A stretch of DNA of 64,000 nt from IMG/VR virus record IMGVR_UViG_3300023174_003073, positions 1 through 64,000 of that record, one strand, 5' to 3'. Positions 113 to 14,912 of this stretch are shown in pieces. The stretch is from a virus. The position numbers and the translations under genes are program-made. The first letter of the stretch is position 1. The number at the start of each line of letters is the position of its first letter. The notes beneath the pieces were generated by a model. It worked only from the letters and a program-made list of their open reading frames with translations, had not been told where the DNA came from and did no database searches.

Positions 113-187
113 CCGGCGTTAGTATAATGGATAATACAGCGGTCTTCTACACCGTGAATGTGGGTTCGATTCCTGCACGCCGGACCA
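113..187 (+). tRNA. tRNA-Arg(TCT)
   Basis: Acceptor CCGGCGT/ACGCCGG, anticodon loop CTTCTAC, T-loop TTCGATT, encoded CCA. Confidence 0.93.
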
Positions 188-805: not shown

Positions 806-939
806 TTTACAACAAATACGTTTGGTGTTATACTATCTTTAATGAGTTGAGAGATTGATTCAAAGGTAAGTTGAAGATTCTAAGTGACGTAGAAATACAA
901 CACAAAAGAATTGACGATAAATCTGTTTAGATGTATAAT
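806..939 (+). promoter_or_regulatory. Tandem sigma70-type promoters upstream of the ncRNA/tRNA block
   Basis: TTTACA(806)-17-TATACT(829) and TTGACG(911)-17-TATAAT(934), each followed by TTTAATGAGTTGAGA. Confidence 0.75.
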
Positions 940-963
940 ACATTTAATGAGTTGAGAAAGCAG

Positions 964-1200
964 GTTGTTTCAAACAGCAAGACACGCTAGCAATAGCAAA
1001 AAGTCAAGCAGGAAACATTAAATGAGTTTGTGACTCAGCCTAAACTACTCTGAGACCGCTGAGGAACAGTGGTATCACAAGGGACCCATGTCAACATGGG
1101 TCCTCAGAGTATAAAGCAGAGGGAGAAAGTTCCCCGAGGCTGGCAGTTGAAAAATTACTGCCAAATGATTAAACAACGCAGTCGATTGAGACTAGTTGTA
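964..1200 (+). ncRNA. Candidate multibranched structured ncRNA (unassigned)
   Basis: No credible ORF. Helices include TACTCTGAG/CTCAGAGTA, GGACCCATG/CATGGGTCC, CAGCCT/AGGCTG, GGCAGT/ACTGCC and GTTGTTT/AAACAAC. Confidence 0.55.
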
Positions 1201-1250
1201 ATGTTCGTTAAAATTTTAATTTTTCGTATAGCCCTGTTTAAGTTACAGGG

Positions 1251-1483: not shown

Positions 1484-1485
1484 AG

Positions 1486-1568
1486 TTATATGTAAACATG
1501 CTTCAGCGGGATAGCCCGTGTTGGATAGTTTCTGTTTAGTACAGTATCCGAAGTGTGTTTTCATATAG
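1486..1568 (+). ncRNA. Long-stem ncRNA cassette B
   Basis: TTATATGTAAACATGCTTC / GAAGTGTGTTTTCATATAG stem enclosing two small hairpins. Confidence 0.55.
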
Positions 1569-1571
1569 TAT

Positions 1572-1646
1572 GCTCGGGTCGTCTATCGGTTAGGACACAT
1601 GCCTTTCACGTATGTAAGAGGGGTTCGATTCCCCTTCCGAGTACCA
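1572..1646 (+). tRNA. tRNA-Glu(TTC)
   Basis: Cloverleaf, loop CTTTCAC, TTCGATT, ACCA end. Confidence 0.95.
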
Positions 1647-1651
1647 AATAT

Positions 1652-1730
1652 GCACCGCTAGCTCAGTCTGGCCTAAGGCGCCGCCCTGTCACGGCGGAGA
1701 TCACGGGTTCGAATCCCGTGCGGTGCGCCA
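1652..1730 (+). tRNA. tRNA-Asp(GTC)
   Basis: GCACCGC/GCGGTGC acceptor, loop CTGTCAC, GCCA end. Confidence 0.95.
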
Positions 1731-1735
1731 AATAT

Positions 1736-1827
1736 GTTGAGTTGGATGAGTGGTTTAAATCAACACCCTGCTAAGGTGTCGCCTGTAGTAATATGGGCCG
1801 TGGGTTCAAATCCCACACTCAACGCCA
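1736..1827 (+). tRNA. tRNA-Ser(GCT)
   Basis: Long variable arm, loop CTGCTAA, G discriminator plus CCA. Confidence 0.95.
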
Positions 1828-1842
1828 GAGTTAAATAAAGTT

Positions 1843-2358
1843 ATGAAAGAATTTTACGATACAAAAGATTTTCCCTTTGTCAAAGAGTTTGAAAACAATT
1901 GGGAAAAGATATACAATGAATGTAAGAACATTCAGCCTTGGATGATTAATTGGCCAATGAACGCACAAGACAATACTAATTGGAATGTGTTTGGATTGTA
2001 TTCTTGGCCTGACGGTAATCCAGTAGAATTACATTGCAGTGCGTGTCCATTCACTGCTAATTTGATAAATTCAGTTGTACCTAATCATAGGACAGCATCG
2101 TTTTCAAAACTGAAAGCAAATTCAGTTATCAAGCCTCATGTGGGTTACAACGGTGATGTATTAAGAATGCATTTAGGATTGTATATACCTGAAGGTGATT
2201 GTGCAATTAAAGTAGGTAACAGTACTTTTAATTGGAAGAACGGAGAAGCATTAGTATTTGATGACAGACTAATGCATGAGACTTGGAACAACACAAATGA
2301 AGATAGATTAGTTTTTATCATTGACTTTGTACCTGACTTCAAGTTAGAATCTCTATAA
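1843..2358 (+). CDS. Aspartyl/asparaginyl beta-hydroxylase family 2OG-Fe(II) oxygenase
   Basis: IKPHVG...LRMHLGLYIP...FDDRLMHETWN..RLVFIID motifs. Confidence 0.88.
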   Translation: MKEFYDTKDFPFVKEFENNWEKIYNECKNIQPWMINWPMNAQDNTNWNVFGLYSWPDGNPVELHCSACPFTANLINSVVPNHRTASFSKLKANSVIKPHVGYNGDVLRMHLGLYIPEGDCAIKVGNSTFNWKNGEALVFDDRLMHETWNNTNEDRLVFIIDFVPDFKLESL

Positions 2359-2362
2359 GAAC

Positions 2363-2547
2363 GTTCTAGCGTCACTAGATACTCTGACCCGGAGGATGAG
2401 AAGTACAATGACATGTACGGGTGGTACACTTTAAACCGAAAGTGCGTTAGCAATACGATAACGGTCCCTGTCGGGAAGCGGGTGGAGGGTGCATGTGATG
2501 ACTCCAAAGGTTTGATGCACTATAATTACCGCCGAGGGATGCAGAGC
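2363..2547 (+). ncRNA. Candidate ~185-nt structured ncRNA (unassigned)
   Basis: Closing helices GTTCT/AGAGC and GCGTC/GATGC. Inner helices GTACA/TGTAC, CACTTT/AAAGTG, GTGCAT/ATGCAC. GC-rich relative to the genome. Confidence 0.5.
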
Positions 2548-2555
2548 ATTTATAT

Positions 2556-2633
2556 GTCTCGGTACCAGAGTGATTTAATGGCTCCGCCTGCAAAGCGGCT
2601 GATTCGTAGGTTTGAATCCTACCCGAGACTCCA
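2556..2633 (+). tRNA. tRNA-Cys(GCA)
   Basis: GTCTCGG/CCGAGAC acceptor, loop CTGCAAA, U discriminator plus CCA. Confidence 0.92.
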
Positions 2634-2653
2634 AGTTTTTAAAGGAGAACATT

Positions 2654-2782
2654 GTGGCGCACAAGCAACAAGGTATTCTAACACGTAGTCCTCAATGGTG
2701 GAAACACCTTAGAGATTGGAAGCGAGTGTTCTGGAAATCAGAACGACAAGCACAAAAGAGAAATTTTAACAAAGGTGAATGA
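2654..2782 (+). CDS. Small basic hypothetical protein (42 aa, not in the ORF track)
   Basis: AAGGAG RBS, GTG start, MAHKQQGILTRSPQWWKHLRDWKRVFWKSERQAQKRNFNKGE. Confidence 0.6.
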   Translation: MAHKQQGILTRSPQWWKHLRDWKRVFWKSERQAQKRNFNKGE

Positions 2783-2870
2783 CATGAAACGTAGTAAACG
2801 TTAGTGTCATCTTTAGACTTCCATGTATGGTCTAGGGATGGCACGTAAAAGAAAATCTAATACGTACTAT

Positions 2871-2945
2871 CCCTTCGAGGTGTTATGGTAGCATACTCGG
2901 CTCTTACCCGATGAGGCGTCAGTTCGACTCTGACTGAAGGGACCA
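2871..2945 (+). tRNA. Atypical tRNA, anticodon CTT (Lys)
   Basis: CCCTTCG/TGAAGGG acceptor, loop CTCTTAC, TTCGACT, ACCA. It has A at position 8 and a mismatch at the top of the anticodon stem. Confidence 0.8.
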
Positions 2946-2951
2946 ATTCAT

Positions 2952-3027
2952 GGAAGCATAACTCAATGGCTAGAGTACCCGGCTTTTAACCGGATAGTTG
3001 TGGGTTCGAGTCCCACTGCTTCTACCA
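2952..3027 (+). tRNA. tRNA-Lys(TTT)
   Basis: Loop CTTTTAA, TTCGAGT, ACCA. Confidence 0.95.
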
Positions 3028-3110
3028 TATAAAAACACATTGAATACTAACTGCGACATCCATCGAAAGGTTAGTAGAAGTCTTGCAAGCCAGTGTGTTT
3101 CTATATGGTA
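3023..3110 (+). ncRNA. Long-stem ncRNA cassette C
   Basis: 20-bp stem TACCATATAAAAACACATTG / CAGTGTGTTTCTATATGGTA, inner TACTAAC/GTTAGTA. Confidence 0.6.
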
Positions 3111-3191
3111 GTTATATAAAAACATATTTGACTAAACTCGGGTTCATCCGTGATAGCAATTGCTACTATATCAAATGTGTTTCTATATGGT
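3111..3191 (+). ncRNA. Long-stem ncRNA cassette D
   Basis: GTTATATAAAAACATATTTGA / TCAAATGTGTTTCTATATGGT stem with two inner hairpins. Confidence 0.55.
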
Positions 3192-3199
3192 AAAAATTT

Positions 3200-3285
3200 G
3201 GAGGTGTAGGAAAATTGGTAACCCCAGTGGACTGTAAATCCGCCGCCCCTGTGCATTGTTGGTTCGACCCCAGCCACCTCCACCA
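3200..3285 (+). tRNA. tRNA-Tyr(GTA)
   Basis: GGAGGTG/CACCTCC, loop CTGTAAA, long variable arm, ACCA. Confidence 0.94.
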
Positions 3286-3288
3286 AGT

Positions 3289-3505
3289 TTTGTAAGTGTT
3301 AGCAAGTGAAATCACGCTATTCAGTATTCTTCGAAGGTTCTGTATAGTAGAAGGTTGCGGGTTCGATGCCCGACTGGTCGCTTGAGTGGGACCGGTATAC
3401 ATGATGGCGTATCAGCTGGATGAATCCCAAGTAACGTACCGACTACTGTCCGGACTTGTATAATCAGTTGAATGGTGCTAATAATGTGGTAGCACTACTT
3501 ACAAA
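3289..3505 (+). ncRNA. Candidate ~215-nt structured ncRNA with a T-arm-like hairpin
   Basis: Closing TTTGTAAGT/ACTTACAAA, plus CGGG-TTCGATG-CCCG, ACTGGTC/GACCGGT and GGTGCTA/TAGCACT. Confidence 0.5.
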
Positions 3506-3558
3506 TTAAATAAATTATTCGCAAAAAGTATAAATACAGTGTTAATGAGGAAAATCTA

Positions 3559-3951
3559 ATGTATAAATTTTTACACAGCTATTATCATCCTGAAGGACAT
3601 CCTATAGCAAGAATATTAAATTCATATGAAATTAAATTTTGGGAATTTTTGCAAAATTGCTGGAATATTCCAGGATTAGAACCTGTAATAGAGTTCTTTA
3701 GAAGTGAAGATTACACCACTGAAGCTATTACATGGAGTTGGGAAACTAAAGAAAAATATGATGAATGGATTACAGTAGCCGGTAGCAAATGGAGTTCTGC
3801 ACTAGTACTTGGTGAAATTTACAGCGACTCGGTTGGAGTAACGCAAACTCATAATCTTCCTGATTATAATGTAGAGCCAGCAGCCGATATGATAGCAACA
3901 ACAGTTGAAGATGTAATGTTGGATTATGGTAAATCTCAAATTACTCAGTAA
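3559..3951 (+). CDS. Hypothetical protein
   Basis: 130-aa ORF, GAGG RBS, TATAAATA late-promoter motif upstream. Confidence 0.75.
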   Translation: MYKFLHSYYHPEGHPIARILNSYEIKFWEFLQNCWNIPGLEPVIEFFRSEDYTTEAITWSWETKEKYDEWITVAGSKWSSALVLGEIYSDSVGVTQTHNLPDYNVEPAADMIATTVEDVMLDYGKSQITQ

Positions 3952-4514
3952 TCTATTATATATTCTTTAAAAATTAATTTAGCAGTACCCATTGGAATTA
4001 TATTACCATCAAAGTCATGTAGTACCATAGTCAATGATCTTCTTATACCACCAAACGTAATCATTTGATGGGGGATCCCTACTTGAATTAAACTAGGTAA
4101 TCCGATTTTATTAGAATATATTTTCTCTAATTTGTAACGTTCAAATACTGTATATTTTCTTATAACATTTTCGGGTGCATCACTGTTTTCCATGATATCA
4201 GCATCTACTGGTATGTTTGCTTTGTAATTATACCAAGACATTTCGTGATGCTCTCCCCATACCCAAATTAATTTTGACATATCACCAGTACCATGCAAAT
4301 CTGAATGGATTGGTCCTGGTTGATACGCATCCCCGTATACATCATAAAAACTAGAAATTGTAGTAATGACAATGCCCTTAGTTTTTAAAAAATCTAATAA
4401 TTTTGGTTCGATAAATTCTACAGGAATTAAATTCCAACCTTCTTTTGGTAAGTCATCCATAGGAATTTTTAATGGGTTTAAATCTAATTTTAAGTTAATG
4501 CATAAATCATTCAT
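3945..4514 (-). CDS. Hypothetical protein, possible cupin/2OG oxygenase fold
   Basis: IHSD...IPHQ gives an HxD..H pattern; TAAATA upstream. Confidence 0.6.
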   Translation of the reverse strand: MNDLCINLKLDLNPLKIPMDDLPKEGWNLIPVEFIEPKLLDFLKTKGIVITTISSFYDVYGDAYQPGPIHSDLHGTGDMSKLIWVWGEHHEMSWYNYKANIPVDADIMENSDAPENVIRKYTVFERYKLEKIYSNKIGLPSLIQVGIPHQMITFGGIRRSLTMVLHDFDGNIIPMGTAKLIFKEYIIDY

Positions 4515-4552
4515 ATAATATTACCTATAGCAATATTTATTATAAGTAAAAG

Positions 4553-5092
4553 ATGTTTAATAAAGATAGTTTCAGTAACGGACAAATTGATAGCAAGTTA
4601 TGGCTATGCCGAGAACTAGAGAATTTAGGTTGGACGTCTGACCTAACACATATCTATGGTGGTTGGTATGGCGTACTTGCTTTTTTGTTATTAACTAGAG
4701 AGAAATTTGTTGTCAATCGTATTAATAGTTTTGACATTGATCCAGAATGTGAATCAATAGCAGATATGATTAATAATAACTATGTTTTCAAAGAATGGAA
4801 GTTTAAAGCACATACCAGTGATTGCAATACTATGATTAGCAATGCAGATTTGATTATCAACACATCCAGCGAACATTTTGAAACAATGGATTGGTTTGAT
4901 AATATTAAATCAGGAACAAGAGTTATCATACAAGGTAATGACATGGATCACGATGACCATGTTGTTCATAGTGATACACTAGAAAAATTTATAAAGCAGT
5001 ATCCATTAAGTGAAATTGCATATCAAGGTGAGTTAGAATTCATTTACCCTGATTGGAACTTTCATAGATATATGCTTATTGGTAAAAAATAA
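4553..5092 (+). CDS. Putative class I SAM-dependent methyltransferase-like protein
   Basis: HIYGGWYG glycine loop, SFDIDP, DLIINTSSEH. Confidence 0.65.
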   Translation: MFNKDSFSNGQIDSKLWLCRELENLGWTSDLTHIYGGWYGVLAFLLLTREKFVVNRINSFDIDPECESIADMINNNYVFKEWKFKAHTSDCNTMISNADLIINTSSEHFETMDWFDNIKSGTRVIIQGNDMDHDDHVVHSDTLEKFIKQYPLSEIAYQGELEFIYPDWNFHRYMLIGKK

Positions 5093-5093
5093 T

Positions 5094-5167
5094 GTCTTGG
5101 TGGTGTAATGGCAGCATAGCGGTCTCCAAAACCGTTTGTGGGGGTTCGAGTCCCTCCCGGGACGCCA
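5094..5167 (+). tRNA. tRNA-Trp(CCA)
   Basis: Loop CTCCAAA, TTCGAGT, GCCA. Confidence 0.94.
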
Positions 5168-5168
5168 A

Positions 5169-5375
5169 TTATAAGTTATTGAATTCAGGTCCTGCTAGAA
5201 TGAAAGGTTTTTCTTCTAGTATAACGTCATTGACGTATTCTTGTTTCACTATTTGAAACAATGGATTCAAAACAAATTCATTAGGAAGTACCCAAGACAG
5301 TTTAGGATCGTAAGGATCTTTACTAAATGTTTGATATAAAACTTCTACTGTCTGGCGTTGCTCAAATGGAATCAT
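5169..5375 (-). CDS. Hypothetical protein
   Basis: 68-aa ORF filling an inter-tRNA gap, TAAATA upstream. Confidence 0.6.
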   Translation of the reverse strand: MIPFEQRQTVEVLYQTFSKDPYDPKLSWVLPNEFVLNPLFQIVKQEYVNDVILEEKPFILAGPEFNNL

Positions 5376-5390
5376 ACAGTATTTATTAAT

Positions 5391-5483
5391 GCCCCTGTAG
5401 TTTAACGGTTAAAACGGCGGATTTATATCCCGTAAGCAACAGATAATTGGTTCATGTGAGTTCGATTCTCGCCGGGGGTACCA
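5391..5483 (+). tRNA. Atypical tRNA, anticodon TAT (Ile), long variable region
   Basis: GCCCCTG/CGGGGGT acceptor, GCGGA-TTTATAT-CCCGT, ~22-nt variable region, TTCGATT, ACCA. Confidence 0.75.
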
Positions 5484-5526
5484 AATAGTTTGACAACATA
5501 TAGTAAATGCTATATACTATGTATAT

Positions 5527-5601
5527 GCGGTGTTAGCTCAGTGGTAGAGCAGGGCCCTCATAAGACCTTGGTCGTTGGATCGTTCCCAACACACCGCACC
5601 A
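5527..5601 (+). tRNA. tRNA with CAT anticodon (elongator Met or Ile2)
   Basis: GCGGTGT/ACACCGC, loop CTCATAA, atypical T-loop ATCGTTC, ACCA. Confidence 0.88.
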
Positions 5602-5612
5602 AATTTTATATT

Positions 5613-6029
5613 ATGGACTTATCAAAAGAAGATGCCGACAAACGTAATAGTTTACCTTATCCAATGGAACTAGGTAGCCCTGCTTTTGCACCTGTCGATG
5701 TTTTTAAAGAAAAGGACATAATACACAATGCTGGCAAACTTCATGCTCAACAAGAGTATGATAGAATCATGGAACAAGTTGAAGTTCTAAAGCGTCAGGC
5801 TGATAGTTTGGCACATAGAATGAAAATAAGTGACATGATGTATAATATCAGTATTACCTTTAAGCCTGTACATGGTAAGATTTATTATGTATACTTAGAC
5901 ACAATTAAGAATGTTCATTGGGTGTCAATGAATCATCCTAACAGTTGGTCAGCACTAGGTATACATCATAAATTTGCAGTTGCTGTTCAACTAATGGGTG
6001 ACAGTAATTGGCAAGAAGTTGAGTTATAA
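5613..6029 (+). CDS. DUF2452-like protein
   Basis: Start moved to MDLSKE, after the tRNA. LPYP..LGSPAF, a coiled coil, FKPVHGKIYYVY and D..W resemble DUF2452. Confidence 0.65.
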   Translation: MDLSKEDADKRNSLPYPMELGSPAFAPVDVFKEKDIIHNAGKLHAQQEYDRIMEQVEVLKRQADSLAHRMKISDMMYNISITFKPVHGKIYYVYLDTIKNVHWVSMNHPNSWSALGIHHKFAVAVQLMGDSNWQEVEL

Positions 6030-6188
6030 AGAACGAATGAAGTAAATTGCTGATTCGGTATCAGTAAAGTATTTCATTCTGATTGAGAAAGTGTAAATAT
6101 CATGTACGATGATGTAACAGGTGGAATCGTTACTCATTGAAAGATGGATGAACAATCCTGAATCAGTGATAGCATCGTAAGTGTGCAT
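6024..6188 (-). CDS. Small hypothetical protein (54 aa)
   Basis: MHTYDAITDSG... start outside the tRNA, ATAAATAC upstream. Confidence 0.55.
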   Translation of the reverse strand: MHTYDAITDSGLFIHLSMSNDSTCYIIVHDIYTFSIRMKYFTDTESAIYFIRSL

Positions 6189-6200
6189 AAAAGTATTTAT

Positions 6201-6274
6201 GCGGGGTTCGTATAGTGGTAATACCTTAGCCTTCCAAGCTAATGCTGAGAGTTCGATTCTCTTACCCCGCTCCA
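6201..6274 (+). tRNA. tRNA-Gly(TCC)
   Basis: GCGGGGT/ACCCCGC, loop CTTCCAA, TCCA. Confidence 0.95.
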
Positions 6275-6293
6275 GATTATTAATAGAGCAAAC

Positions 6294-7853
6294 ATGCAAA
6301 CAATTATTTTTTCAGATGTACTTGCTCCTGGTTATGGTAAAAGCGCAGGTGCATATAGAATTGCATCAGAGTTACGGTCAAACGGGTTTACATGTCAAGT
6401 AGTTGATTTTTTCGCACATCTTTCTATTAATCAAATTTATTCAATTATAGATACTTTAGCAACCAGCGATACATTGTGGGTAGGATTTTCTACTACGTTT
6501 TTCTTTACACTGGATGAAAGTATTGACGCACAAAATCAATCACCTGATGAAAGAAACGAAAAGATATTTTTTGATAAAGTACCGTATCCTATAGTTGATA
6601 TGAAAACTGGTTATCCGTTCAGTGCTTCTATTATGAAGGATATATTTCGTTATATTAGAAGTAAAAGTTCAACAATAAAAATTGTTATAGGCGGCGGTAG
6701 AAGTCAACAGGCAGCTTTTCATGATGGGTCTATACTTAACAAAGTATGGGGAGATTATTATGTACATGGTTTTGCCGATGAATCTGTTACTGTATTGACT
6801 AAGTGGTTAATAGATAAATCAAATCCAGAACCAAAATTTTCCGGATTTTATAACAATTTCATTGATTCAAACAAAGAATATGATTATCAAGAATTTAACA
6901 AATCAAGCCTTCATTTTCAAAAAAATGATGTAATTGGTTCTACTGAATTCATCCCGATTGAAATCGCTAGGGGATGTATTTTTAAATGTAAATTTTGTTG
7001 TTTTCCATTATTAGGAAAAAAACGCGGAGATTACACTAAGACAAAAGAAACTTTGCAAGAAGAATTCATACGAAACTATGAAAATTTTGGTACAACCAAT
7101 TACATGTTTATGGATGAGACCATAAACGATTCAATGGAAAAAGTAGAATTCTTGTATGATGTTATATCAACTTTGCCCTTTAAGATTAAGTGGGGAGGAT
7201 ATCAACGTTTAGACTTGTATTATACAAATTCGGAAATGCCTTCAATTATTCAGGAAATAGGATGTGAACAAATTATTTTTGGAGTTGAAACATTAAACAA
7301 GAAAACCGGTGAAGTTGTGGGTAAAGGAATGCATCCGGACAAAGTAAAAGAGTTACTTAAAAAATTAAAAAATCAATGGAAAGATAACATTCAACTTTCT
7401 TCCGGTTTTATTATTGGGTTACCTTATGAAACTAAAGAATCATTAAAGGATCTTGAAACATATCTTCTATCTGATGATTGTGGTTTAGATTCTTGGTCAT
7501 TGTATCCTTTTATGATAGTTGAAGGAATGGATACAATGATAAGTTCTAATCCATCACAGTATGGATATAAAATAATTGATACTGACTATGGAACAGAATG
7601 GGAAAACGATTACATGACCTTTACAGAGGCACATCAAATCACAACTGAAATCAGAAAAAATACCATGCATAAATGCAAAGTTAATGGATGGGTACAGATG
7701 AGATTACGAAATGTCGGATACACTAAGGACGAACTAAATCGTATGACAATCTTTGACTATCACAATAATATGAGTGAAATACATAGCCGACTAACATTAA
7801 AGAAAGAAAATTACTTTAACATTTTAATGGGAAACAAAGAGATTGACAATTAA
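6294..7853 (+). CDS. B12-binding-domain radical SAM protein
   Basis: IEIARGCIFKCKFC (CxxxCxxC), FMDETIND, FGVET, FIIGLPYET; N-terminal B12-binding-like region (VGFST, IVIGG). Confidence 0.9.
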   Translation: MQTIIFSDVLAPGYGKSAGAYRIASELRSNGFTCQVVDFFAHLSINQIYSIIDTLATSDTLWVGFSTTFFFTLDESIDAQNQSPDERNEKIFFDKVPYPIVDMKTGYPFSASIMKDIFRYIRSKSSTIKIVIGGGRSQQAAFHDGSILNKVWGDYYVHGFADESVTVLTKWLIDKSNPEPKFSGFYNNFIDSNKEYDYQEFNKSSLHFQKNDVIGSTEFIPIEIARGCIFKCKFCCFPLLGKKRGDYTKTKETLQEEFIRNYENFGTTNYMFMDETINDSMEKVEFLYDVISTLPFKIKWGGYQRLDLYYTNSEMPSIIQEIGCEQIIFGVETLNKKTGEVVGKGMHPDKVKELLKKLKNQWKDNIQLSSGFIIGLPYETKESLKDLETYLLSDDCGLDSWSLYPFMIVEGMDTMISSNPSQYGYKIIDTDYGTEWENDYMTFTEAHQITTEIRKNTMHKCKVNGWVQMRLRNVGYTKDELNRMTIFDYHNNMSEIHSRLTLKKENYFNILMGNKEIDN

Positions 7854-7883
7854 TGATACATAGTATATAATATACTTTGTTTT

Positions 7884-7968
7884 GCGAGTGTGACGGAATA
7901 GGTAGACGTAACAGACTTAAAATCTGTCGCTTTAGGGCGTCCCGGTTCGATTCCGGGCACTCGCACCA
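7884..7968 (+). tRNA. tRNA-Leu(TAA)
   Basis: Loop CTTAAAA, long variable arm, ACCA. Confidence 0.95.
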
Positions 7969-7973
7969 GATAT

Positions 7974-8002
7974 GCCCTGGTGGTGGAATTGGTAGACACG
8001 CT
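7974..8002 (+). pseudogene. Truncated tRNA-Leu (5' acceptor strand and D-arm only)
   Basis: GCCCTGGTGGTGGAATTGGTAGACACGCT matches a Leu tRNA 5' third and stops before the anticodon. Confidence 0.7.
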
Positions 8003-8030
8003 TTTTTGTGTGTCTAGCATAAATAGATAT

Positions 8031-8480
8031 ATGAAACACATTGAAGAATATATTACATTATCAAAGGCAGACCGACAGCAACATCTTAAATTAGATGAAG
8101 CCTGCATTGAAAGAGGAGCTGGCAGTTATTATTTCAAAGGATTGTTAGCACATTTATTAGATACAACAGTGCCAACAGGACATAAGATACACTTGTGTCA
8201 TGCTTGTCATAATGGTCAGTGCGGTAATCCTAATCATTTGTATTGGGGCACTGCTCAGGAAAATAGACAGGATCAAGTAACAAATGGTGGAAAAACTATT
8301 TGGGAAAGAACAGTAGAAAAACATGGTTTAGAAGAAGCCTACAAAATGCAAACTAAAGGCAACAAAAGTGCAGGTGGTAAAGCAAATAAAGGTAAACCTA
8401 AATCAGAAGAACATAAGAGAAAAATTGCCGCTAACCATAAAGGTGGGCGACAAAAGAAAGTTAATGCGGACGTGACGTAA
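8031..8480 (+). mobile_element. Free-standing HNH (His-Cys/Zn-binding loop) homing endonuclease with NUMOD3-like tail
   Basis: LCHACHNGQCGNPNHLYWGTAQEN motif; C-terminal KPKSEEHKRKIA; CATAAATA promoter motif upstream. Confidence 0.85.
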
Positions 8481-8550
8481 TTGGTAGCCGTACCAGTCTT
8501 AGAAGCTGGCGCCGAGAGGTGTGTGAGTTCGAGTCTCACCGTCCGCACCA
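8466..8550 (+). tRNA. tRNA-Leu(TAG)
   Basis: GCGGACG/CGTCCGC, loop CTTAGAA, variable arm, ACCA. Confidence 0.94.
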
Positions 8551-8560
8551 AAGTTTTAAT

Positions 8561-8636
8561 GGGGGATTAGCTCAGTTGGGAGAGCGGCTGGTTTGCAACC
8601 AGTAGGTCGCAGGTTCGATCCCTGTATCCTCCACCA
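8561..8636 (+). tRNA. tRNA-Ala(TGC)
   Basis: GGGGGAT/ATCCTCC with G3:U70, loop TTTGCAA. Confidence 0.95.
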
Positions 8637-8670
8637 AGAATCATAAATATAGTATGTCGAGGAACATGCT

Positions 8671-8853
8671 ATGCAATTGAAAGTTTATATCAACAACAAA
8701 CTATACAAAACTGTCACAGTACAAGGTGAAAGTTATGATCCAGGATTCATTTGGCCTGAATTGCAAGCCGATAGAGATTCTGGGTTACTTGTAGGATTTG
8801 ATTTAACCAAGGGAATCAACATTCGTTACGAAAAAGTAACAAACAAGAAGTAA
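8671..8853 (+). CDS. Hypothetical protein
   Basis: 60 aa, GAGG RBS, CATAAATA upstream. Confidence 0.65.
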   Translation: MQLKVYINNKLYKTVTVQGESYDPGFIWPELQADRDSGLLVGFDLTKGINIRYEKVTNKK

Positions 8854-8855
8854 CC

Positions 8856-8930
8856 GCTTGATTAGCACAGTGGAAGTGCGCTTGCTCGACATGCAAGAGG
8901 TCAAAAGTTCAAATCTTTTATCAAGCACCA
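8856..8930 (+). tRNA. tRNA-Val(GAC)
   Basis: GCTTGAT/ATCAAGC, loop TCGACAT (C33), ACCA. Confidence 0.88.
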
Positions 8931-8951
8931 ACTAATCACAAATAAATATGT

Positions 8952-9026
8952 CGCGGGGTGGAGAAGTAGTATCTCATTAGTCTCATAAGCTAAAGATCGG
9001 CGGTGCGATTCCGTCCCCTGCAACCA
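8952..9026 (+). tRNA. Initiator-like tRNA-Met(CAT)
   Basis: CGCGGGG 5' end with C1:A72 mismatch, loop CTCATAA. Confidence 0.88.
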
Positions 9027-9041
9027 ACAACAATCATTCAA

Positions 9042-9281
9042 ATGCTAGAATATTTTATAACCTTTTTTGCTGTATTTTTTACTGATATCTTTTATACTTA
9101 CTACTTGAAGGCAGTACAAGAAGAACAGGTAATGAAAGCCAGTTTATGGGCAGTGGTAGTATTCATAATTGCTTGTATAGCAGTTATAAATTACACTACT
9201 AACTATTGGTTACTTATTCCAGCAGGCATAGGTGCATTTTGTGGCACATATGTTGGGATGATTTTAAGAAAGAAAGAATAA
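9042..9281 (+). CDS. Small membrane protein (3 TM)
   Basis: Hydrophobic segments, GAFCGTYVG. Confidence 0.75.
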   Translation: MLEYFITFFAVFFTDIFYTYYLKAVQEEQVMKASLWAVVVFIIACIAVINYTTNYWLLIPAGIGAFCGTYVGMILRKKE

Positions 9282-9358
9282 CGGAGTGTAGCGCAGTCTG
9301 GTAGCGCACCTGGTTTGGGACCAGGGGGTCCAAGGTTCGAATCCTTGTACTCCGACCA
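9282..9358 (+). tRNA. tRNA-Pro(TGG)
   Basis: CGGAGTG start, loop TTTGGGA, ACCA. Confidence 0.95.
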
Positions 9359-9377
9359 ATTTTATAGAAAGAAACTA

Positions 9378-9650
9378 ATGCAAGTAAGAGCAAAACATAT
9401 TTTAGTAGAATCACTCAGTGATGCAATGGATCTATACATCAAAGTTAAAAACAATGGTGAAGATTTCAGCACACTAGCACAGACATACAGCAAGTGTCCA
9501 AGCGGTCGTAATGGCGGAGACTTAGGAACGTTTGATCGTGGGCAAATGGTTAAACCATTTGAAGATGCTACATTTGGTTTAGAAGTAGGTGGCTTAAGTC
9601 AACCTGTTCAAACTCAGTTTGGTTATCACTTGATTCAAAGGACTGCATAA
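9378..9650 (+). CDS. ppiC: Parvulin-type peptidyl-prolyl cis-trans isomerase
   Basis: RAKHILV...SKCPSGRNGGDLGTF..GQMVKPFE..VQTQFGYHLI. Confidence 0.93.
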   Translation: MQVRAKHILVESLSDAMDLYIKVKNNGEDFSTLAQTYSKCPSGRNGGDLGTFDRGQMVKPFEDATFGLEVGGLSQPVQTQFGYHLIQRTA

Positions 9651-9817
9651 TGACTTGTAGAGGATATGATCCAAAAGCTGTTAAGGTCTCTAAAACAGTA
9701 AAACGTGCGGCAGCATTGATTATGGATAGTCATCAACGTGGCGCTTTTATTCGTAGTTTTGCTAAAATCGAACAAGCTAACAGTCGTTCAGCAGGACGAG
9801 TTAAAGAAGAAAAGTAA
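9650..9817 (+). CDS. Small basic hypothetical protein (55 aa, not in the ORF track)
   Basis: MTCRGYDPKAVKVSKTVKR..., coupled to both neighbours by TAATG overlaps. Confidence 0.65.
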   Translation: MTCRGYDPKAVKVSKTVKRAAALIMDSHQRGAFIRSFAKIEQANSRSAGRVKEEK

Positions 9818-10425
9818 TGCCATATATCAAAGAAGTTTTTGATGTAACAACATTTGAACACGCTAAACACGTTGTTCTTACCAGTGACCCAGACAACCCA
9901 AACAAGTTTGAGAATGAAACAAACTTTTTGATTAATACAATTGCGGAACAAAATATTATACTGAAGGATTCAGTTGTATTAGATTTTGGTTGTGGTATGG
10001 GTCGTGTTAGTAAAAAACTGATTGAGAAATTTGATTGTAATGTCATTGGTGTTGATATAAGCAATACTATGCTTACATTTGCTAATATCTATGTGTCTAA
10101 GCCAAAGAAGTTCAAACCATTGAATTCATATAATATGGCAAATACTATAGATGTTGCTATCAGCACTTTTGTATTACAACATGTAGAGAATCCAAAGACT
10201 GAGATAGATATCATTTACAATAATCTTAAAGTAGGTGGTTATCTAATATTAGTGAATGAGAACAAGAGATATGTACCAAGTGACGTTGATAGTAATCGTT
10301 ATATAGTTTGGAACGATGATGGCTTTGATGTTTTTGGCGAATTAGATAGTAGACTTAACAGAATAAATAGTGTAAAATACATGTCAACAGACACAGACAT
10401 TATCTTTTATAGGAGAGAAGTATGA
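9817..10425 (+). CDS. Class I SAM-dependent methyltransferase
   Basis: VLDFGCGMGR, GVDIS..ML, FVLQHV, LKVGG. Confidence 0.9.
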   Translation: MPYIKEVFDVTTFEHAKHVVLTSDPDNPNKFENETNFLINTIAEQNIILKDSVVLDFGCGMGRVSKKLIEKFDCNVIGVDISNTMLTFANIYVSKPKKFKPLNSYNMANTIDVAISTFVLQHVENPKTEIDIIYNNLKVGGYLILVNENKRYVPSDVDSNRYIVWNDDGFDVFGELDSRLNRINSVKYMSTDTDIIFYRREV

Positions 10426-10610
10426 GTGGAAAAGGAAGTAAACCTCGCCCATTTAGCATATCTCAACAAGAGTACGATACTCGGTGGGATGCTATATTTC
10501 AGCGTGATATTAAAGAAGAAATGAAAGACGAGAAGGCTCCAGTGCTAGAAAACAATCAGAGTAAAGAATCTGATAAAGTTTCTAGTTCTGGCGGAACAAT
10601 TAATATATGA
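10422..10610 (+). CDS. Hypothetical phage protein
   Basis: MSGKGSKPRP...WDAIF, ATGA overlap. Confidence 0.7.
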   Translation: MSGKGSKPRPFSISQQEYDTRWDAIFQRDIKEEMKDEKAPVLENNQSKESDKVSSSGGTINI

Positions 10611-10616
10611 TAATAT

Positions 10617-10692
10617 GCATCCTTAGCTCAGTTGGTAGAGCGTCGCCTTTACACGGCGAATGTCGGCGGTTCGAGCCCGTCAGGATGTACCA
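10617..10692 (+). tRNA. tRNA-Val(TAC)
   Basis: Loop TTTACAC, TTCGAGC, ACCA. Confidence 0.95.
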
Positions 10693-10707
10693 GTTACTAA
10701 ATAGAAC

Positions 10708-11274
10708 ATGTTTACTAAATTAAATATCAATCATAATTTTTCCCTACAAAGTTCGAGAAAACTTAAATTTCAATTTGGAAAAGTGATTGATGATGCTTGG
10801 CGTGGAATTTCATACTACGAAGCAGATATAGAAATGGATACCAAGATAAAAAAATATATTCCTGAAAAATATAGAAATTACTTTGATGTTACTATGATGA
10901 TTATTTCAGGACCTTATATTCCACCGCATATCGATGATGGCACTTTGGTAACCATGAATTTTTATATGGAAACAAGTAATGCATGTACATATTTTCATCA
11001 AGTAAAAGACAATATTACACCTACTATTAAAACGCTGCCTTCACAAAAGACAACCGGTAAATTTTTTGCAATTGAAGATTTAGAAACTGTTAGTCAATTT
11101 ACAGCGAATCGTGGAGAAGTTTATTTACTAGATGTTAGTAAAATACATAGTGTGAGTGTAGAAAACTCACCAGACAGAGAAGCATATTGTTTACAAACCA
11201 ATGAGCTTACATACACACAGGTATTAGAAATTTTAGCTGAGAGAGAATTCTCTCAATCAGATAAGCGGGATTAA
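10708..11274 (+). CDS. Putative 2OG-Fe(II) oxygenase/cupin-fold protein
   Basis: PPHID (HxD)...LLDVSKIHSV. Confidence 0.65.
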   Translation: MFTKLNINHNFSLQSSRKLKFQFGKVIDDAWRGISYYEADIEMDTKIKKYIPEKYRNYFDVTMMIISGPYIPPHIDDGTLVTMNFYMETSNACTYFHQVKDNITPTIKTLPSQKTTGKFFAIEDLETVSQFTANRGEVYLLDVSKIHSVSVENSPDREAYCLQTNELTYTQVLEILAEREFSQSDKRD

Positions 11275-11339
11275 TTCAGTGGTAGAATGTTTCGTTGCCA
11301 ACGAAAATGTCATCGGTTCGAATCCGATATCCCGCTCCA
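11265..11339 (+). tRNA. tRNA-Gly(GCC)
   Basis: GCGGGAT/ATCCCGC, loop TTGCCAA, TCCA. Confidence 0.94.
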
Positions 11340-11356
11340 AATAACCTAAGGATGAT

Positions 11357-11569
11357 ATGCCAAGACAAACAAGTGAAGCCGCAGTAAACGCTGTAGGTAA
11401 TAGATACGATTTAATTCTTATAGCAAGTCAACGTGTTAGAGAATTAACGGCAGGTCATCGCCCTAAATTAACAACAGCTAATGGTCATTCAGTTACCGCA
11501 TTGCGTGAGATTGAAGAAGGACTAATCAACCGTGAATATCTAAAACGAATCAAAAAGGTTGAGCGTTGA
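11357..11569 (+). CDS. rpoZ: RNA polymerase omega subunit
   Basis: VGNRYDLILIASQRVREL...VTALREIEEGLI. Confidence 0.92.
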   Translation: MPRQTSEAAVNAVGNRYDLILIASQRVRELTAGHRPKLTTANGHSVTALREIEEGLINREYLKRIKKVER

Positions 11570-12075
11570 ATCTACAGCCAGACTATACACTAGACAAATA
11601 TCTTAGCCAAGAAGAAGTTGAGATGTTTCATAAGAGTGGTGAGCATTATGATTTGTTAAGCACCTTTTCTAAGCAATTCAATAAAGTTAAAATTTACGAT
11701 ATTGGAACTTATAAAGGTCTTAGTGCCATTGCACTGTCAAGTAATCAAAGTAATTTAGTTGTTAGTTATGATATAGGTTACTATGTAACAGTTAAACAAC
11801 CCTACAATGTAGAGTTTCGTATAGGTAGTTTTTACCATGATAGAGAAATGTTAAGTAGTCCATTAATCATGTTTGACATTGATCCACATGATGGAATACA
11901 AGAAAAGAAGTTTGTAGAGAATTTAACTAATGTGGGTTACAAAGGTACTGTTATCTTTGATGACATACATTTGAATGATGGAATGAAAGACTTCTGGAAT
12001 TCTATCACACAAGAGAAACATGACTATACCCAGCACGGGCATTGGTCTGGTACCGGCATAGTTATATTCAAATAA
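11566..12075 (+). CDS. Methyltransferase-like protein (Methyltransf_24-like)
   Basis: DIGTYKGLSA, FDIDPH, VIFDDIH, GTGI. Confidence 0.75.
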   Translation: MNLQPDYTLDKYLSQEEVEMFHKSGEHYDLLSTFSKQFNKVKIYDIGTYKGLSAIALSSNQSNLVVSYDIGYYVTVKQPYNVEFRIGSFYHDREMLSSPLIMFDIDPHDGIQEKKFVENLTNVGYKGTVIFDDIHLNDGMKDFWNSITQEKHDYTQHGHWSGTGIVIFK

Positions 12076-12165
12076 GGAAGTGTGTCCGAGCGGTTTAAGG
12101 AACTGGTCTTGAAAACCAGCGATGTTTTACGATATCCGTGAGTTCGAATCTCACCGCTTCCGCCA
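12076..12165 (+). tRNA. tRNA-Ser(TGA)
   Basis: GGAAGTG/CGCTTCC, loop CTTGAAA, long variable arm, GCCA. Confidence 0.95.
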
Positions 12166-14009: not shown

Positions 14010-14033
14010 ACGTGTATTGATTAAATCAATTTT

Positions 14034-14197
14034 AGGATCGGCACAGCAACAAACTCATTAACTATGGACTGTTAGACACTGTGGTAGTAACTGGAGCAGA
14101 GTGCGTAAAAACACCGAGCGTTGAAGGGTGCTATTGAAGCAAGACTAACGAACCAGGTGTGATGGCCCTGGCTAAACAAGCAGTCAACAACGATCCT
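14034..14197 (+). ncRNA. CAGCAAC-motif structured RNA, copy 1 (candidate Y-like RNA)
   Basis: AGGATCG/CGATCCT closing stem, 3 nt, CAGCAAC; inner GACTGTT/AGCAGTC and CCAGG/CCTGG. Confidence 0.6.
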
Positions 14198-14220
14198 GTT
14201 AACTTAATAAAGGAAAAAAT

Positions 14221-14819: not shown

Positions 14820-14827
14820 TATTTTTT

Positions 14828-14882
14828 AGGATGCATTCAGCAACTTTTAATTTCAACCATAAATGAAACCAAAGCGCATCCT
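14828..14882 (+). ncRNA. CAGCAAC-motif structured RNA, copy 2 (candidate Y-like RNA or leader)
   Basis: AGGATGC/GCATCCT closing stem, 3 nt, CAGCAAC; inner TTTCA/TGAAA. Confidence 0.6.
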
Positions 14883-14912
14883 GTTGCATAACACACACGG
14901 AAGGAGTACAAT

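What the first reader, a model, noticed from the sequence alone, without database searches (positions are those of the whole stretch)
964..1200. Promoter-proximal multibranched RNA starting with a third stem-N3-CAGCAA module
Seen: about 240 nt without a credible ORF follows a consensus promoter (911-939). It begins TGTTTC-aaa-CAGCAA-GAC..GCTA-GCAA-TAGC..GTC-aagcag-GAAACA (966-1017), the same stem, 3 nt, CAGCAA geometry as the two elements at 14 kb but with a different stem sequence. A nested domain follows: CAGCCT/AGGCTG encloses TACTCTGAG/CTCAGAGTA, CCGCTG/CAGTGG and a 9-bp GGACCCATG/CATGGGTCC hairpin. Known: large ornate RNAs such as GOLLD and ROOL occur in phage tRNA clusters. Inference: this is an unassigned large ncRNA, possibly another ligand of the DUF2828 protein, which would link that protein to the tRNA operon.
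Basis: partly seen in the sequence, partly recalled or inferred. Interest (0 to 1): 0.7.

Follow-up and report, generated by a model that had tools for sequence, protein, structure and literature searches.

The report
Hairpin modules in phage tRNA-operon leader
The 240 bases are real folded RNA, but they are four separate hairpin modules inserted into the rRNA-operon-style leader of a giant lake phage's tRNA operon, not one large RNA and not a third partner of the DUF2828 protein; one module belongs to a widespread RNA motif family absent from Rfam.

Summary
The sequence features are all present and fold far better than shuffles (z -5.6). The interpretation only partly holds.

1. CAGCAA at 975-980 is chance. 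The nine variants of this hairpin in related phages read ACGCAA, AAGCGA, AAGCAA or CAGCGA. A model of the real DUF2828-associated CAGCAA family does not score it. The stem-N3-CAGCAA geometry is expected about 2.6 times per 64 kb.

2. The region is modular, not one RNA:
- H1, 966-1017
- H2, 1023-1037
- a roughly 125-nt module, ND plus hairpin A, 1046-1162
- H3, 1174-1198

Each is conserved on its own and shows compensatory changes. Only 5 of 34 distinct related leaders carry the full set. In 22 of 33, the promoter lies just 26-46 nt from the next element.

3. That next element is GTTCGTTAAAA (1203-1213). Most relatives have GTTCTTTAAAA, the boxA consensus. With tandem sigma-70 promoters and a hairpin just upstream, this mirrors an rrn antitermination leader.

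4. ND is an RNA motif absent from Rfam: 34 pairs, 99% paired, 11-13 covarying. I found 64 distinct contexts in lake phage contigs, mostly between protein genes.

The function of H1 and ND remains inferred.

The parts
806..834 (+). Promoter P1 (TTTACA-N17-TATACT, with TG before the -10)
   Evidence: 10 of 12 matches. Conserved in relatives (A1). Followed by the box TTTAATGAGTTGAGA at 838-852.
911..939 (+). Promoter P2 (TTGACG-N17-TATAAT)
   Evidence: 11 of 12 matches. Conserved in relatives. No + strand terminator-like site in 700-1700.
943..957 (+). Start-proximal box TTTAATGAGTTGAGA, also after P1 (838-852), with a degenerate third copy at 1018-1030
   Evidence: In the simplest relatives this box forms a GTTGA-GAAA-TCAAC hairpin directly before boxA.
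966..1017 (+). H1: rod-like hairpin. Outer stem 966-971/1012-1017; GC 977-978 with GC 1008-1009; GAC 981-983 with GTC 1003-1005; apical stem 986-989/994-997 with GNRA loop GCAA. CAGCAA (975-980) lies in an internal loop.
   Evidence: z -3.3. Nine variants in relatives. With H2: 16 pairs, 100% paired, 9 with compensatory changes, 0 of 500 shuffles. The hexamer varies as MMGCRA.
1023..1040 (+). H2: small hairpin TGAGT/ACTCA followed by invariant GCC
   Evidence: The stem changes to TGAG/CTCA, TGAAG/CTTCA, TGGG/CCCA and TGAC/GTCA in relatives.
1046..1111 (+). ND part 1: helix P2 (1046-1054/1103-1111) enclosing hairpins P3 (1055-1061/1067-1073, loop GAGGAAC) and P4 (1082-1090/1095-1103, loop TCAA)
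   Evidence: G-U pairs fit the + strand only (GU:14 at one P3 pair).
1115..1141 (+). ND part 2: P5a (1115-1117 with 1139-1141) closing P5 (1121-1123 with 1133-1135)
Evidence: P5a covaries: GC:9 and AU:8 at one pair, GC:12 and AU:5 at the next.
1142..1162 (+). Hairpin A: GGCAGT/ACTGCC with loop TGAAAAATT, directly after P5a (one unpaired base between them in the family consensus)
   Evidence: z -4.05. Compensatory GGCAGT/ACTGCC versus GCCAGT/ACTGGC. The loop was also kept in all 13 hits of a scan keyed on P4 alone.
1174..1198 (+). H3: hairpin CAAC-GC-AGTC-GATTGA-GACT-A-GTTG, 4 nt before the boxA-like word (the boxB position of an rrn leader)
   Evidence: Compensatory variants AAAG..AGTT/AACT..CTTT and TAAC/GTTA in relatives.
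1203..1213 (+). boxA-like word GTTCGTTAAAA
   Evidence: Present in all 34 distinct leaders collected by this word plus its downstream context: 25 GTTCTTTAAAA, 9 GTTCGTTAAAA. Also conserved in the leader alignments built from synteny and BLAST anchors. GTTCTTTAAAA fits the published consensus GYTCTTTAANA (PMC5725501).
1245..1484 (+). Context only: conserved stem-closed RNA cassette that follows the leader. A second cassette lies at 1485-1571, then tRNA-Glu at 1572-1646.
   Evidence: This is the subject of a separate first-stage note.

Best explanation
Window 964-1200 is the variable, promoter-proximal part of the leader of the phage's tRNA operon.

The operon starts at two tandem sigma-70 promoters (806-834 and 911-939). 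The constant part of this leader in related phages is a short hairpin followed within a few bases by the word GTTC(T/G)TTAAAA (1203-1213 here). That is the promoter, boxB-position hairpin and boxA layout of bacterial rrn operons. I infer that it recruits host NusB/S10 and partner factors, so that the long untranslated tRNA transcript escapes Rho termination.

In this phage's sub-lineage about 240 nt of extra RNA lies between the start site and that signal. It is not one RNA but four autonomous modules:
- H1, a GNRA-capped rod with purine-rich internal loops, seen only ahead of tRNA-Glu in tRNA arrays.
- H2, a small hairpin followed by GCC.
- ND plus hairpin A, a copy of a roughly 125-nt five-helix motif that occurs mostly between protein genes of related lake phages.
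- H3, the hairpin in the boxB position.

Shown: the folds, their covariation, their patchy and modular distribution, the + strand, the absence of coding, and non-membership of the CAGCAA family.

Inferred: the modules act in cis on the transcript that carries them, as binding sites for a protein or for RNA polymerase, or as processing or stabilising structures. They are accessory to, not required for, the boxA leader.
For: Modularity and distribution:
- H1 plus H2 are present in window, L002 and L005 but absent from L003 and L014-L017. Segment 1041-1199 is absent from all seven first-aligned relatives.
- The full set is found only in the nearest kin: L052/L078/L222/L223, L043, L219 and L227.
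- L227 has H1 plus H2 twice. In L229, ND sits before a promoter and H1 after it.
- Of 34 distinct leaders, 5 have H1+ND+H3, 8 have H1 and 7 have ND or its tail.
- The distance from the -10 element to boxA is 26-46 nt in 22 of 33 leaders, against 263 nt here.

Structure:
- ND: 34 pairs, 99.1% paired against about 36% when slid, 11 pairs with compensatory changes, 0 of 500 shuffles.
- On 42 distinct metagenome copies: 98.8% paired, 13 pairs compensatory.
- H1 plus H2: 100% paired, 9 of 16 pairs compensatory.
- H3 shows compensatory variants.
- Fold z-scores are -3.3 to -5.7.

ND autonomy: there are 64 distinct contexts. Nine have boxA within 90 nt downstream, about 21 are followed by an RBS plus ATG, and 6 by a promoter. 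Where flanks were read by eye, ND lies on the same strand as the flanking genes.

rrn-like layout: tandem promoters, the boxA word, and a hairpin 3-6 nt upstream of it in every lineage examined. The rrn order boxB-boxA-boxC, with boxA decisive and boxB dispensable, is described in PMC8632103.

Not coding: frameshifting indels in near-identical kin.

Not the CAGCAA family.
Against: - No expression, end-mapping or binding data exist, so function is inference.
- The window's own boxA word has G at position 5 (GTTCGTTAAAA), one mismatch to the consensus. The host, and therefore its own boxA, is unknown.
- No boxC-like element was identified.
- A promoter-like match (TTGAGA-N17-TAAAAT, 1186-1214) overlaps H3 and boxA, so the word could partly be a -10 element.
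- Most ND copies are not next to boxA, so ND's role may have nothing to do with antitermination.
- The ND searches were seeded with conserved P4 or hairpin-A words, so loop and stem invariance at those places is partly by selection.
- Alignment A7 was fitted to the model, so its pair counts lean towards the structure.
Confidence: 0.7

Rival explanations
1. H1 and/or ND are small-RNA genes riding on the transcript. They are cut out by RNase P/E/III-type processing, like the stable RNAs C and D of the phage T4 tRNA cluster, and act in trans, for example by binding or titrating a host or phage protein.
For: ND is self-contained and occurs in many unrelated transcript positions: after ORF stops, before and after promoters, and inside tRNA arrays. 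Loops and junctions are strongly conserved. The same operon holds stem-closed cassettes flush with tRNAs that look made for excision. Earlier scan notes report the same.
Against: No flanking processing signals were identified around H1 or ND. They are not flush with a tRNA. ND often ends 15-25 nt before a start codon, which fits a cis role. There are no expression data.
Confidence: 0.2
2. The ND tail (P5a-P5 hairpin, one unpaired base, hairpin A with a GAAAAA-containing loop), with or without the rest of ND, is a processive antitermination RNA. It would act either as a put-like element that binds RNA polymerase directly or as a boxB-like site for an N-like phage protein.
For: The geometry is two hairpins separated by a single base, about 50-60 nt. 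The put RNA of HK022 is described as a roughly 65-nt double hairpin acting in cis (PMC8632103). The tail alone sits between promoter and boxA, directly before tRNA-Glu, in L234 and L250. The full ND sits directly before boxA in L220. Other copies lie after a first small gene or after promoters, as nutR and putR do.
Against: This is a resemblance of shape only. No sequence or model comparison with put or nut was made. Most copies have no boxA nearby. No terminators were mapped downstream. No N-like protein was identified.
Confidence: 0.15
3. ND and H1 are intercistronic processing or stabilising structures (RNase III/E sites or 3'/5' end protectors), like the RNase III sites between phage T7 genes.
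For: Most ND copies lie just after an ORF stop and before the next RBS. P2 stacked on P4 gives about 17-18 bp of helix.
Against: Plain duplex sites do not need the observed conservation of loops and junctions (GAGGAAC, YCAA, TGAAAAATT, CGAGG). No cleavage data exist.
Confidence: 0.2
4. One reading: 964-1200 (or 940-1570) is one large ornate ncRNA whose first hairpin is a third stem-N3-CAGCAA module and a ligand of the DUF2828 (Ro60-like) protein.
For: The window sequence does show a 6-bp stem, 3 nt, then CAGCAA. The DUF2828-associated CAGCAA family is real and widespread.
Against: CAGCAA is found in 1 of 9 H1 variants. H1 lacks the family's TTAGGAT/ATCCTG stem words. Model R1 gives no hit on 966-1017 with filters off. 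The geometry is expected 2.6 times per window by chance. The parts are gained and lost independently. There is no GOLLD, ROOL or other Rfam match.
Confidence: 0.03
5. The inserted modules are selfish or neutral insertions, for example remnants of duplication of the promoter-proximal region, with no function for the phage.
For: Distribution is patchy and most relatives lack them. The start-proximal box is repeated three times, and H1 plus H2 are tandemly duplicated in L227, which points to duplication and recombination.
Against: Base pairing is maintained through many compensatory changes across divergent copies. This is not expected for decaying neutral sequence.
Confidence: 0.08

Closest known systems
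Bacterial rrn operon leader (tandem P1/P2, boxB hairpin, boxA, boxC; the Nus/SuhB/S4 antitermination complex)
   Same: Two tandem sigma-70 promoters about 100 bp apart, then a hairpin, then within 3-6 nt a boxA-type word, ahead of a long untranslated stable-RNA operon. The word is GTTCTTTAAAA in 25 of 34 related leaders, fitting GYTCTTTAANA, and GTTCGTTAAAA here.
   Different: The cargo is a phage tRNA array, not rRNA. No boxC was seen. In this sub-lineage about 240 nt of extra structured modules sit between the start site and the hairpin-boxA unit. Nus binding is untested.
DUF2828-associated CAGCAA RNA family of these same phages (window 14032-14198 and 14826-14883)
   Same: A 6-bp closing stem, three unpaired bases, then CAGCAA in the window's copy of H1.
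   Different: The family has TTAGGAT...ATCCTG stem words and CAGCAA kept in all 47 BLAST-collected copies. H1 has neither the stem words nor a conserved hexamer (MMGCRA), and it does not score with the family model.
HK022 put RNA and lambda nut boxB
   Same: These are cis-acting RNA hairpins placed after promoters or after a first gene. put is a roughly 65-nt double hairpin (PMC8632103). The ND tail is two hairpins one base apart, the second with a GAAAAA-containing loop.
   Different: The likeness is of shape and position only. The hairpin A loop is 9 nt, not a boxB-type pentaloop. No sequence relationship was tested and no function is known.
Stable non-tRNA RNAs of phage tRNA clusters (T4 RNA C and RNA D); GOLLD and ROOL near phage tRNAs
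   Same: Structured non-coding RNA co-transcribed with phage tRNAs.
   Different: There is no Rfam match to GOLLD, ROOL or any family. The modules here lie in the leader, not between tRNAs, and are much smaller. ND is found mainly outside tRNA arrays.

Membership tests
DUF2828-associated CAGCAA RNA family | Closing stem embedded in the conserved words TTAGGAT-NN ... NN-ATCCTG | tested here: not met
   All 47 distinct BLAST-collected copies upstream of DUF2828 have these words. H1 has GGTTGTTTC...GAAACATT.
DUF2828-associated CAGCAA RNA family | CAGCAA three bases after the stem, kept in orthologues | tested here: not met
   H1 variants read ACGCAA (4), AAGCGA (2), AAGCAA, CAGCGA and CAGCAA; only the window has CAGCAA.
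DUF2828-associated CAGCAA RNA family | Significant score with a covariance model of the family | tested here: not met
   R1 scores 71.7 bits at 14826-14883. It gives no match on 966-1017 with filters off at E up to 10. The model also misses the long-cargo form at 14032-14198, so it relies heavily on sequence.
GOLLD, ROOL, Y RNA and any other Rfam 15 family | cmscan match at or near the gathering score | tested here: not met
   Only tRNAs reach gathering score in the whole window. The best hits in 930-1575 have E of 5.5 or worse. ND relatives give only chance-level hits.
rrn-type (nut-like) antitermination leader | Tandem strong sigma-70 promoters ahead of a stable-RNA operon | tested here: met
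   806-834 and 911-939. Twenty tRNAs follow on the same strand from 1572. The promoters are conserved in relatives.
rrn-type (nut-like) antitermination leader | boxA word (consensus GYTCTTTAANA, PMC5725501) in the leader | tested here: met
   25 of 34 related leaders have GTTCTTTAAAA exactly. The window and 8 others have GTTCGTTAAAA, one mismatch. The published consensus is for gamma-proteobacteria and the host is unknown.
rrn-type (nut-like) antitermination leader | Hairpin in the boxB position just upstream of boxA | tested here: met
   H3 at 1174-1198, with compensatory variants. Other lineages have GTTGA-GAAA-TCAAC, TAGTTA...TAACTA or hairpin A at that place.
rrn-type (nut-like) antitermination leader | boxC element downstream of boxA | tested here: inconclusive
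   No GU-rich boxC-like word is evident after 1213. No model of boxC was available.
rrn-type (nut-like) antitermination leader | Binding of NusB/S10 and resistance to Rho termination | not testable with these tools
   Needs biochemistry or reporters.
HK022 put-type antiterminator RNA | Roughly 65-nt double hairpin acting in cis on RNA polymerase | tested here: inconclusive
   The ND tail is a double hairpin with a one-base spacer. No sequence or model comparison with put was made and no functional data exist.
Protein-coding gene (78-aa ORF, 1069-1305) | Reading frame kept in relatives | tested here: not met
   Frameshifting indels in L052 and L043. No Pfam hit.

The most novel reading that the evidence does not exclude
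ND, or at least its two-hairpin tail, is a new class of phage cis-acting RNA that modifies the transcription complex, as a put-like or boxB-like processive antitermination element. It would be used both in tRNA-operon leaders next to boxA and between early protein genes of a large group of uncultured freshwater phages.
Probability: 0.15. Interest if true: 0.7.

Novelty: new variant of a known kind. Interest (0 to 1): 0.45.

Why it matters
The result removes a tempting but false link between the DUF2828/Ro60-like system and the tRNA operon.

It shows that the leader of this phage tRNA operon is built like a host rRNA-operon leader. That suggests giant lake phages use the host Nus machinery to transcribe their stable RNAs. 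Earlier notes of this scan reached the same reading on other genomes.

It also defines two RNA motifs absent from Rfam, each with solid covariation:
- H1 is leader-specific.
- ND is about 125 nt and was found in 64 distinct contexts in freshwater phage contigs.

Their function is open. ND is compact, abundant and well defined enough for direct tests of binding, processing or antitermination.

Tried and rejected
- BLASTN of 780-1580 against 50,697 deposited phage genomes found no match. The DnaJ neighbour has only distant relatives among cultured phages, so no host could be assigned.
- Rfam at permissive thresholds, on the window and on ND relatives, gave nothing credible.
- The own 171-kb record holds no second copy of H1, ND or hairpin A.
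- A genome-contig scan with a 21-base ND-tail pattern gave 2 hits, neither a convincing ND: 14.7 bits and no match. ND therefore looks confined to phages, within the limits of one narrow pattern.
- The first viral scan with GGACCCATG...CATGGGTCC gave nothing, because relatives have A at the first position.
- A third promoter at 1186-1214 is not consistently present in relatives, whereas GTTC.TTAAAA is conserved as a whole.
- Ideas examined by eye and dropped:
  - a hammerhead core, because CUGAGA is paired and no GAAA follows stem II
  - a K-turn in H1, because the G-A order is wrong
  - a CsrA decoy, because the GGA in the loops is not invariant
  - pairing of the P3 loop GAGGAAC with boxA GTTC, which is lost in the window and irrelevant where boxA is absent
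- PHROG search of the small genes flanking ND in L226 was uninformative.
- A literature search for boxA leaders in phage tRNA operons found no matching paper in the held library.

Full report
**Setting**

The window is the first 64 kb of a 171-kb IMG/VR phage record that is about 43% complete. It holds 21 tRNA genes, 20 of them in a + strand array from 1572 to 12165. A dnaJ-like gene lies on the minus strand at 189-767. Between its start and tRNA-Glu (1572) there are about 800 nt without a credible gene. The finding covers 964-1200 of that stretch.

**Check of the observation**

All quoted sequence features are at the stated coordinates.
- The promoter at 911-939 is TTGACG-N17-TATAAT, 11 of 12 matches. 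A second promoter lies at 806-834.
- Segment 946-1204 folds at -84.1 kcal/mol, z -5.6. The nested domain 1036-1143 has z -5.7 and the first hairpin z -3.3.
- Rfam gives no match in 930-1575, even at E up to 10. Only tRNAs reach gathering score in the whole window.
- The 78-aa ORF at 1069-1305 has no Pfam match. In contigs 93-96% identical it is broken by a 2-nt deletion and a 4-nt insertion.

So the non-coding, structured character is confirmed.

**Relatives**

The dnaJ neighbour, two conserved DNA words and the DUF2828 protein brought in related contigs from IMG/VR. Several come from genomes of 225-525 kb.

Aligning the stretch from dnaJ to tRNA-Glu gave four results:
- Both promoters are conserved.
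- The first hairpin (966-1017) is present in only two of the seven relatives first aligned.
- Segment 1041-1199 is absent from all seven.
- Strong conservation resumes at 1200.

Closer kin (L052/L078/L222/L223 at 96%, L043 at 93%, L227, L219) carry the whole stretch.

**The CAGCAA claim**

The elements upstream of the DUF2828 gene form a real family.
- In 47 distinct sequences collected by BLAST, TTAGGAT-NN-N3-CAGCAA ... NN-ATCCTG is kept, and the NN pairs covary.
- Further copies enclose varied cargo.

The hairpin at 966-1017 is not a member.
- Its nine variants in relatives read ACGCAA, AAGCGA, AAGCAA, CAGCGA and, only in this window, CAGCAA.
- The two variable positions are among the very few that change between otherwise near-identical copies of the hairpin.
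- It lacks the family's stem words.
- A covariance model of the family scores 71.7 bits on 14826-14883 but gives no match on 966-1017, with filters off and E up to 10.
- A 6-bp arm followed by N3-CAGCAA is expected 2.6 times per 64 kb by chance and is seen four times.

**What the region is made of**

*H1 (966-1017)* is a conserved rod.
- The outer stem is TGTTTC/GAAACA here, TACTTC/GAAGTA in L219 and TGCCGC/GCGGCA in L130.
- Inside lie a GC/GC step flanked by purines, a 3-bp stem (GAC/GTC, or AGC/GCT in L229), and an apical stem always capped by a GNRA loop (GCAA, GTGA, GAAA).

*H2 (1023-1037)* follows the invariant ATTAAATG, and invariant GCC follows it. Its stem changes to TGAAG/CTTCA, TGGG/CCCA and TGAC/GTCA.

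For H1 and H2 together, 16 pairs are 100% paired and 9 show compensatory changes. None of 500 shuffles reaches this.

*The nested domain plus the next hairpin (1046-1162, 'ND')* proved to be a module of its own.
- It occurs in other genomic places in related phages: after the stop of a small lysine-rich ORF, before a small 'YFGMF' ORF, directly after or before promoters, and inside another tRNA array.
- On 17 distinct copies the consensus has 34 pairs: P2 enclosing hairpins P3 and P4, then P5a-P5, one free base, and hairpin A.
- 99.1% of cells are paired, against about 36% when partners are slid. Eleven pairs show compensatory change, and 0 of 500 shuffles reach this.
- A G-U pair kept in 14 of 17 copies fixes the + strand.
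Its 3' strand instead forms P5a (1115-1117 with 1139-1141), which covaries as AGC/GCT, GGC/GCC and GAC/GTC.
- A model of ND finds one copy per contig: 21 full and 11 'tail-only' (P5a-P5 plus hairpin A) copies among the viral loci. Sixty-seven more hits came from lake metagenome contigs, 42 of them distinct, with 98.8% paired and 13 compensatory pairs. That alignment is fitted to the model.
- Of 64 distinct contexts, nine have the boxA word within 90 nt downstream, about 21 are followed by an RBS and ATG, and six by a promoter.
- The two hits of the ND-tail pattern in the representative bacterial genomes were not convincing copies. ND is not in Rfam.

*H3 (1174-1198)* is a hairpin with compensatory variants: CAAC/GTTG against AAAG/CTTT and TAAC/GTTA, and AGTC/GACT against AGTT/AACT. 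It ends 4 nt before GTTCGTTAAAA.

**The frame around the region**

The constant feature of all 34 distinct related leaders is the word GTTC(T/G)TTAAAA. Twenty-five have GTTCTTTAAAA and nine, including the window, have GTTCGTTAAAA. These leaders were collected by that word together with its downstream context, but the word is also conserved in alignments built from synteny and BLAST anchors.
- GTTCTTTAAAA fits the boxA consensus GYTCTTTAANA derived for gamma-proteobacteria (PMC5725501).
- A hairpin always precedes the word by a few bases. It is GTTGA-GAAA-TCAAC in the simplest leaders, H3 in the window's clade, and hairpin A in L234, L250 and L220.
- Together with the tandem promoters, this is the layout of rrn leaders. 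In those, boxA is decisive and boxB dispensable (PMC8632103).
- In 22 of 33 leaders the -10 element is only 26-46 nt from boxA. In the window it is 263 nt.
- Only 5 of 34 leaders have H1+ND+H3. L227 has H1 and H2 twice.

The region 964-1200 is therefore a lineage-specific expansion of a short, conserved leader. The start-proximal box TTTAATGAGTTGAGA occurs three times (838-852, 943-957, degenerate at 1018-1030). This points to duplication and recombination as the source of the expansion.

**Mechanism**

Shown: the modules are RNA-level elements under selection for their folds, on the tRNA strand, downstream of strong promoters, with no terminator-like site on that strand before the tRNAs.

Inferred:
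- H3 plus the boxA word nucleate a Nus-type, termination-resistant transcription complex for the untranslated tRNA operon.
- H1, H2 and ND are accessory.

ND's conserved loops (GAGGAAC, YCAA, TGAAAAATT) and junctions suggest recognition by a protein, by RNA polymerase or by tertiary contacts. Its usual place, between an ORF stop and the next RBS, fits three roles equally well: a processing or stabilising element, a nut/put-like element, or an excised small RNA. I cannot separate these without expression or binding data.

**Relation to earlier notes of this scan**

I reached the rrn-style reading from the sequence and PMC5725501 before looking the notes up.
- Notes on other genomes report the same kind of boxA leader before phage tRNAs and GOLLD. 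They agree but are not independent evidence.
- Notes on this window describe the CAGCAA/DUF2828 system and the stem-closed cassettes from 1251 onward.
- Look-alike cassettes were followed up on other genomes.

**Verdict**

The structure is real and new in detail. The headline interpretation, a third CAGCAA module and a single large RNA that is a DUF2828 ligand, is not supported. The most useful product is the definition of the ND and H1 motifs and of the expanded rrn-like leader.

Noticed in passing
window 14032-14198 and 14826-14883; L163:1077-1192, L004:4321-4432, L043:8716-8829, L194:1250-1367: The DUF2828-associated TTAGGAT-NN-N3-CAGCAA...NN-ATCCTG stems enclose very different cargos. Several cargos contain a T-arm-like GGTTCGA(T/G)TCC hairpin and a D-arm-like TAGCTCA..GGTAGAGCA segment in permuted order, reminiscent of the tRNA-like domain of bacterial Y RNAs. 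Several phage contigs carry 2-3 copies.
   Followed up: partly
window 1225-1231, 1251-1257, 1476-1482: CTATATG (1251-1257) can pair either with the upstream CGTATAG (1225-1231), extending the CCCTG/CAGGG hairpin, or with the downstream CATATAG (1476-1482), as part of the roughly 21-bp closing stem of the cassette. The two pairings exclude each other and both are conserved in relatives, so a conformational switch is possible.
   Followed up: partly
window 1485-1571; L219 and L227: The second cassette is bounded by the repeat TTTTCATATAGTA (1472-1484 and 1559-1571). In L219 and L227 the interior of the first cassette (1265-1486) is missing and only the second cassette's interior remains. This suggests that interiors are exchanged by recombination at the shared stems.
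   Followed up: partly
L233:8483-8600, L270, L237 (downstream of ND): A further structured element of about 100 nt (CGAATGG...CATTCG) lies between ND and the small 'YFGMF' gene. It has no Rfam match.
   Followed up: partly
L259:5019-5190, L262:737-900 (downstream of the ND tail): A long GC-rich, apparently structured non-coding stretch follows the ND tail. It may be another large phage RNA.
   Followed up: no
window 1186-1214: A promoter-like match, TTGAGA-N17-TAAAAT (10 of 12), overlaps H3 and the boxA-like word. It is not consistently present in relatives.
   Followed up: partly
window 113-187 versus L004, L005, L006 (between dnaJ and P1): tRNA-Arg(TCT) lies downstream of dnaJ in the window but between dnaJ and promoter P1 in some relatives, so tRNA genes move around this locus.
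   Followed up: no
L226:11845-12162: A GIY-YIG homing-endonuclease-like ORF lies about 130 nt upstream of the lysine-rich small gene that precedes ND in that contig.
   Followed up: no
L229 (reverse strand), about 30-60 nt before tRNA-Glu: In this relative the boxA place is taken by GGTAGTTCTCCAAAAACTACC. This is a hairpin containing a boxA-like GTTCTCCAAAA, and the conserved cassette follows tRNA-Glu instead of preceding it.
   Followed up: no
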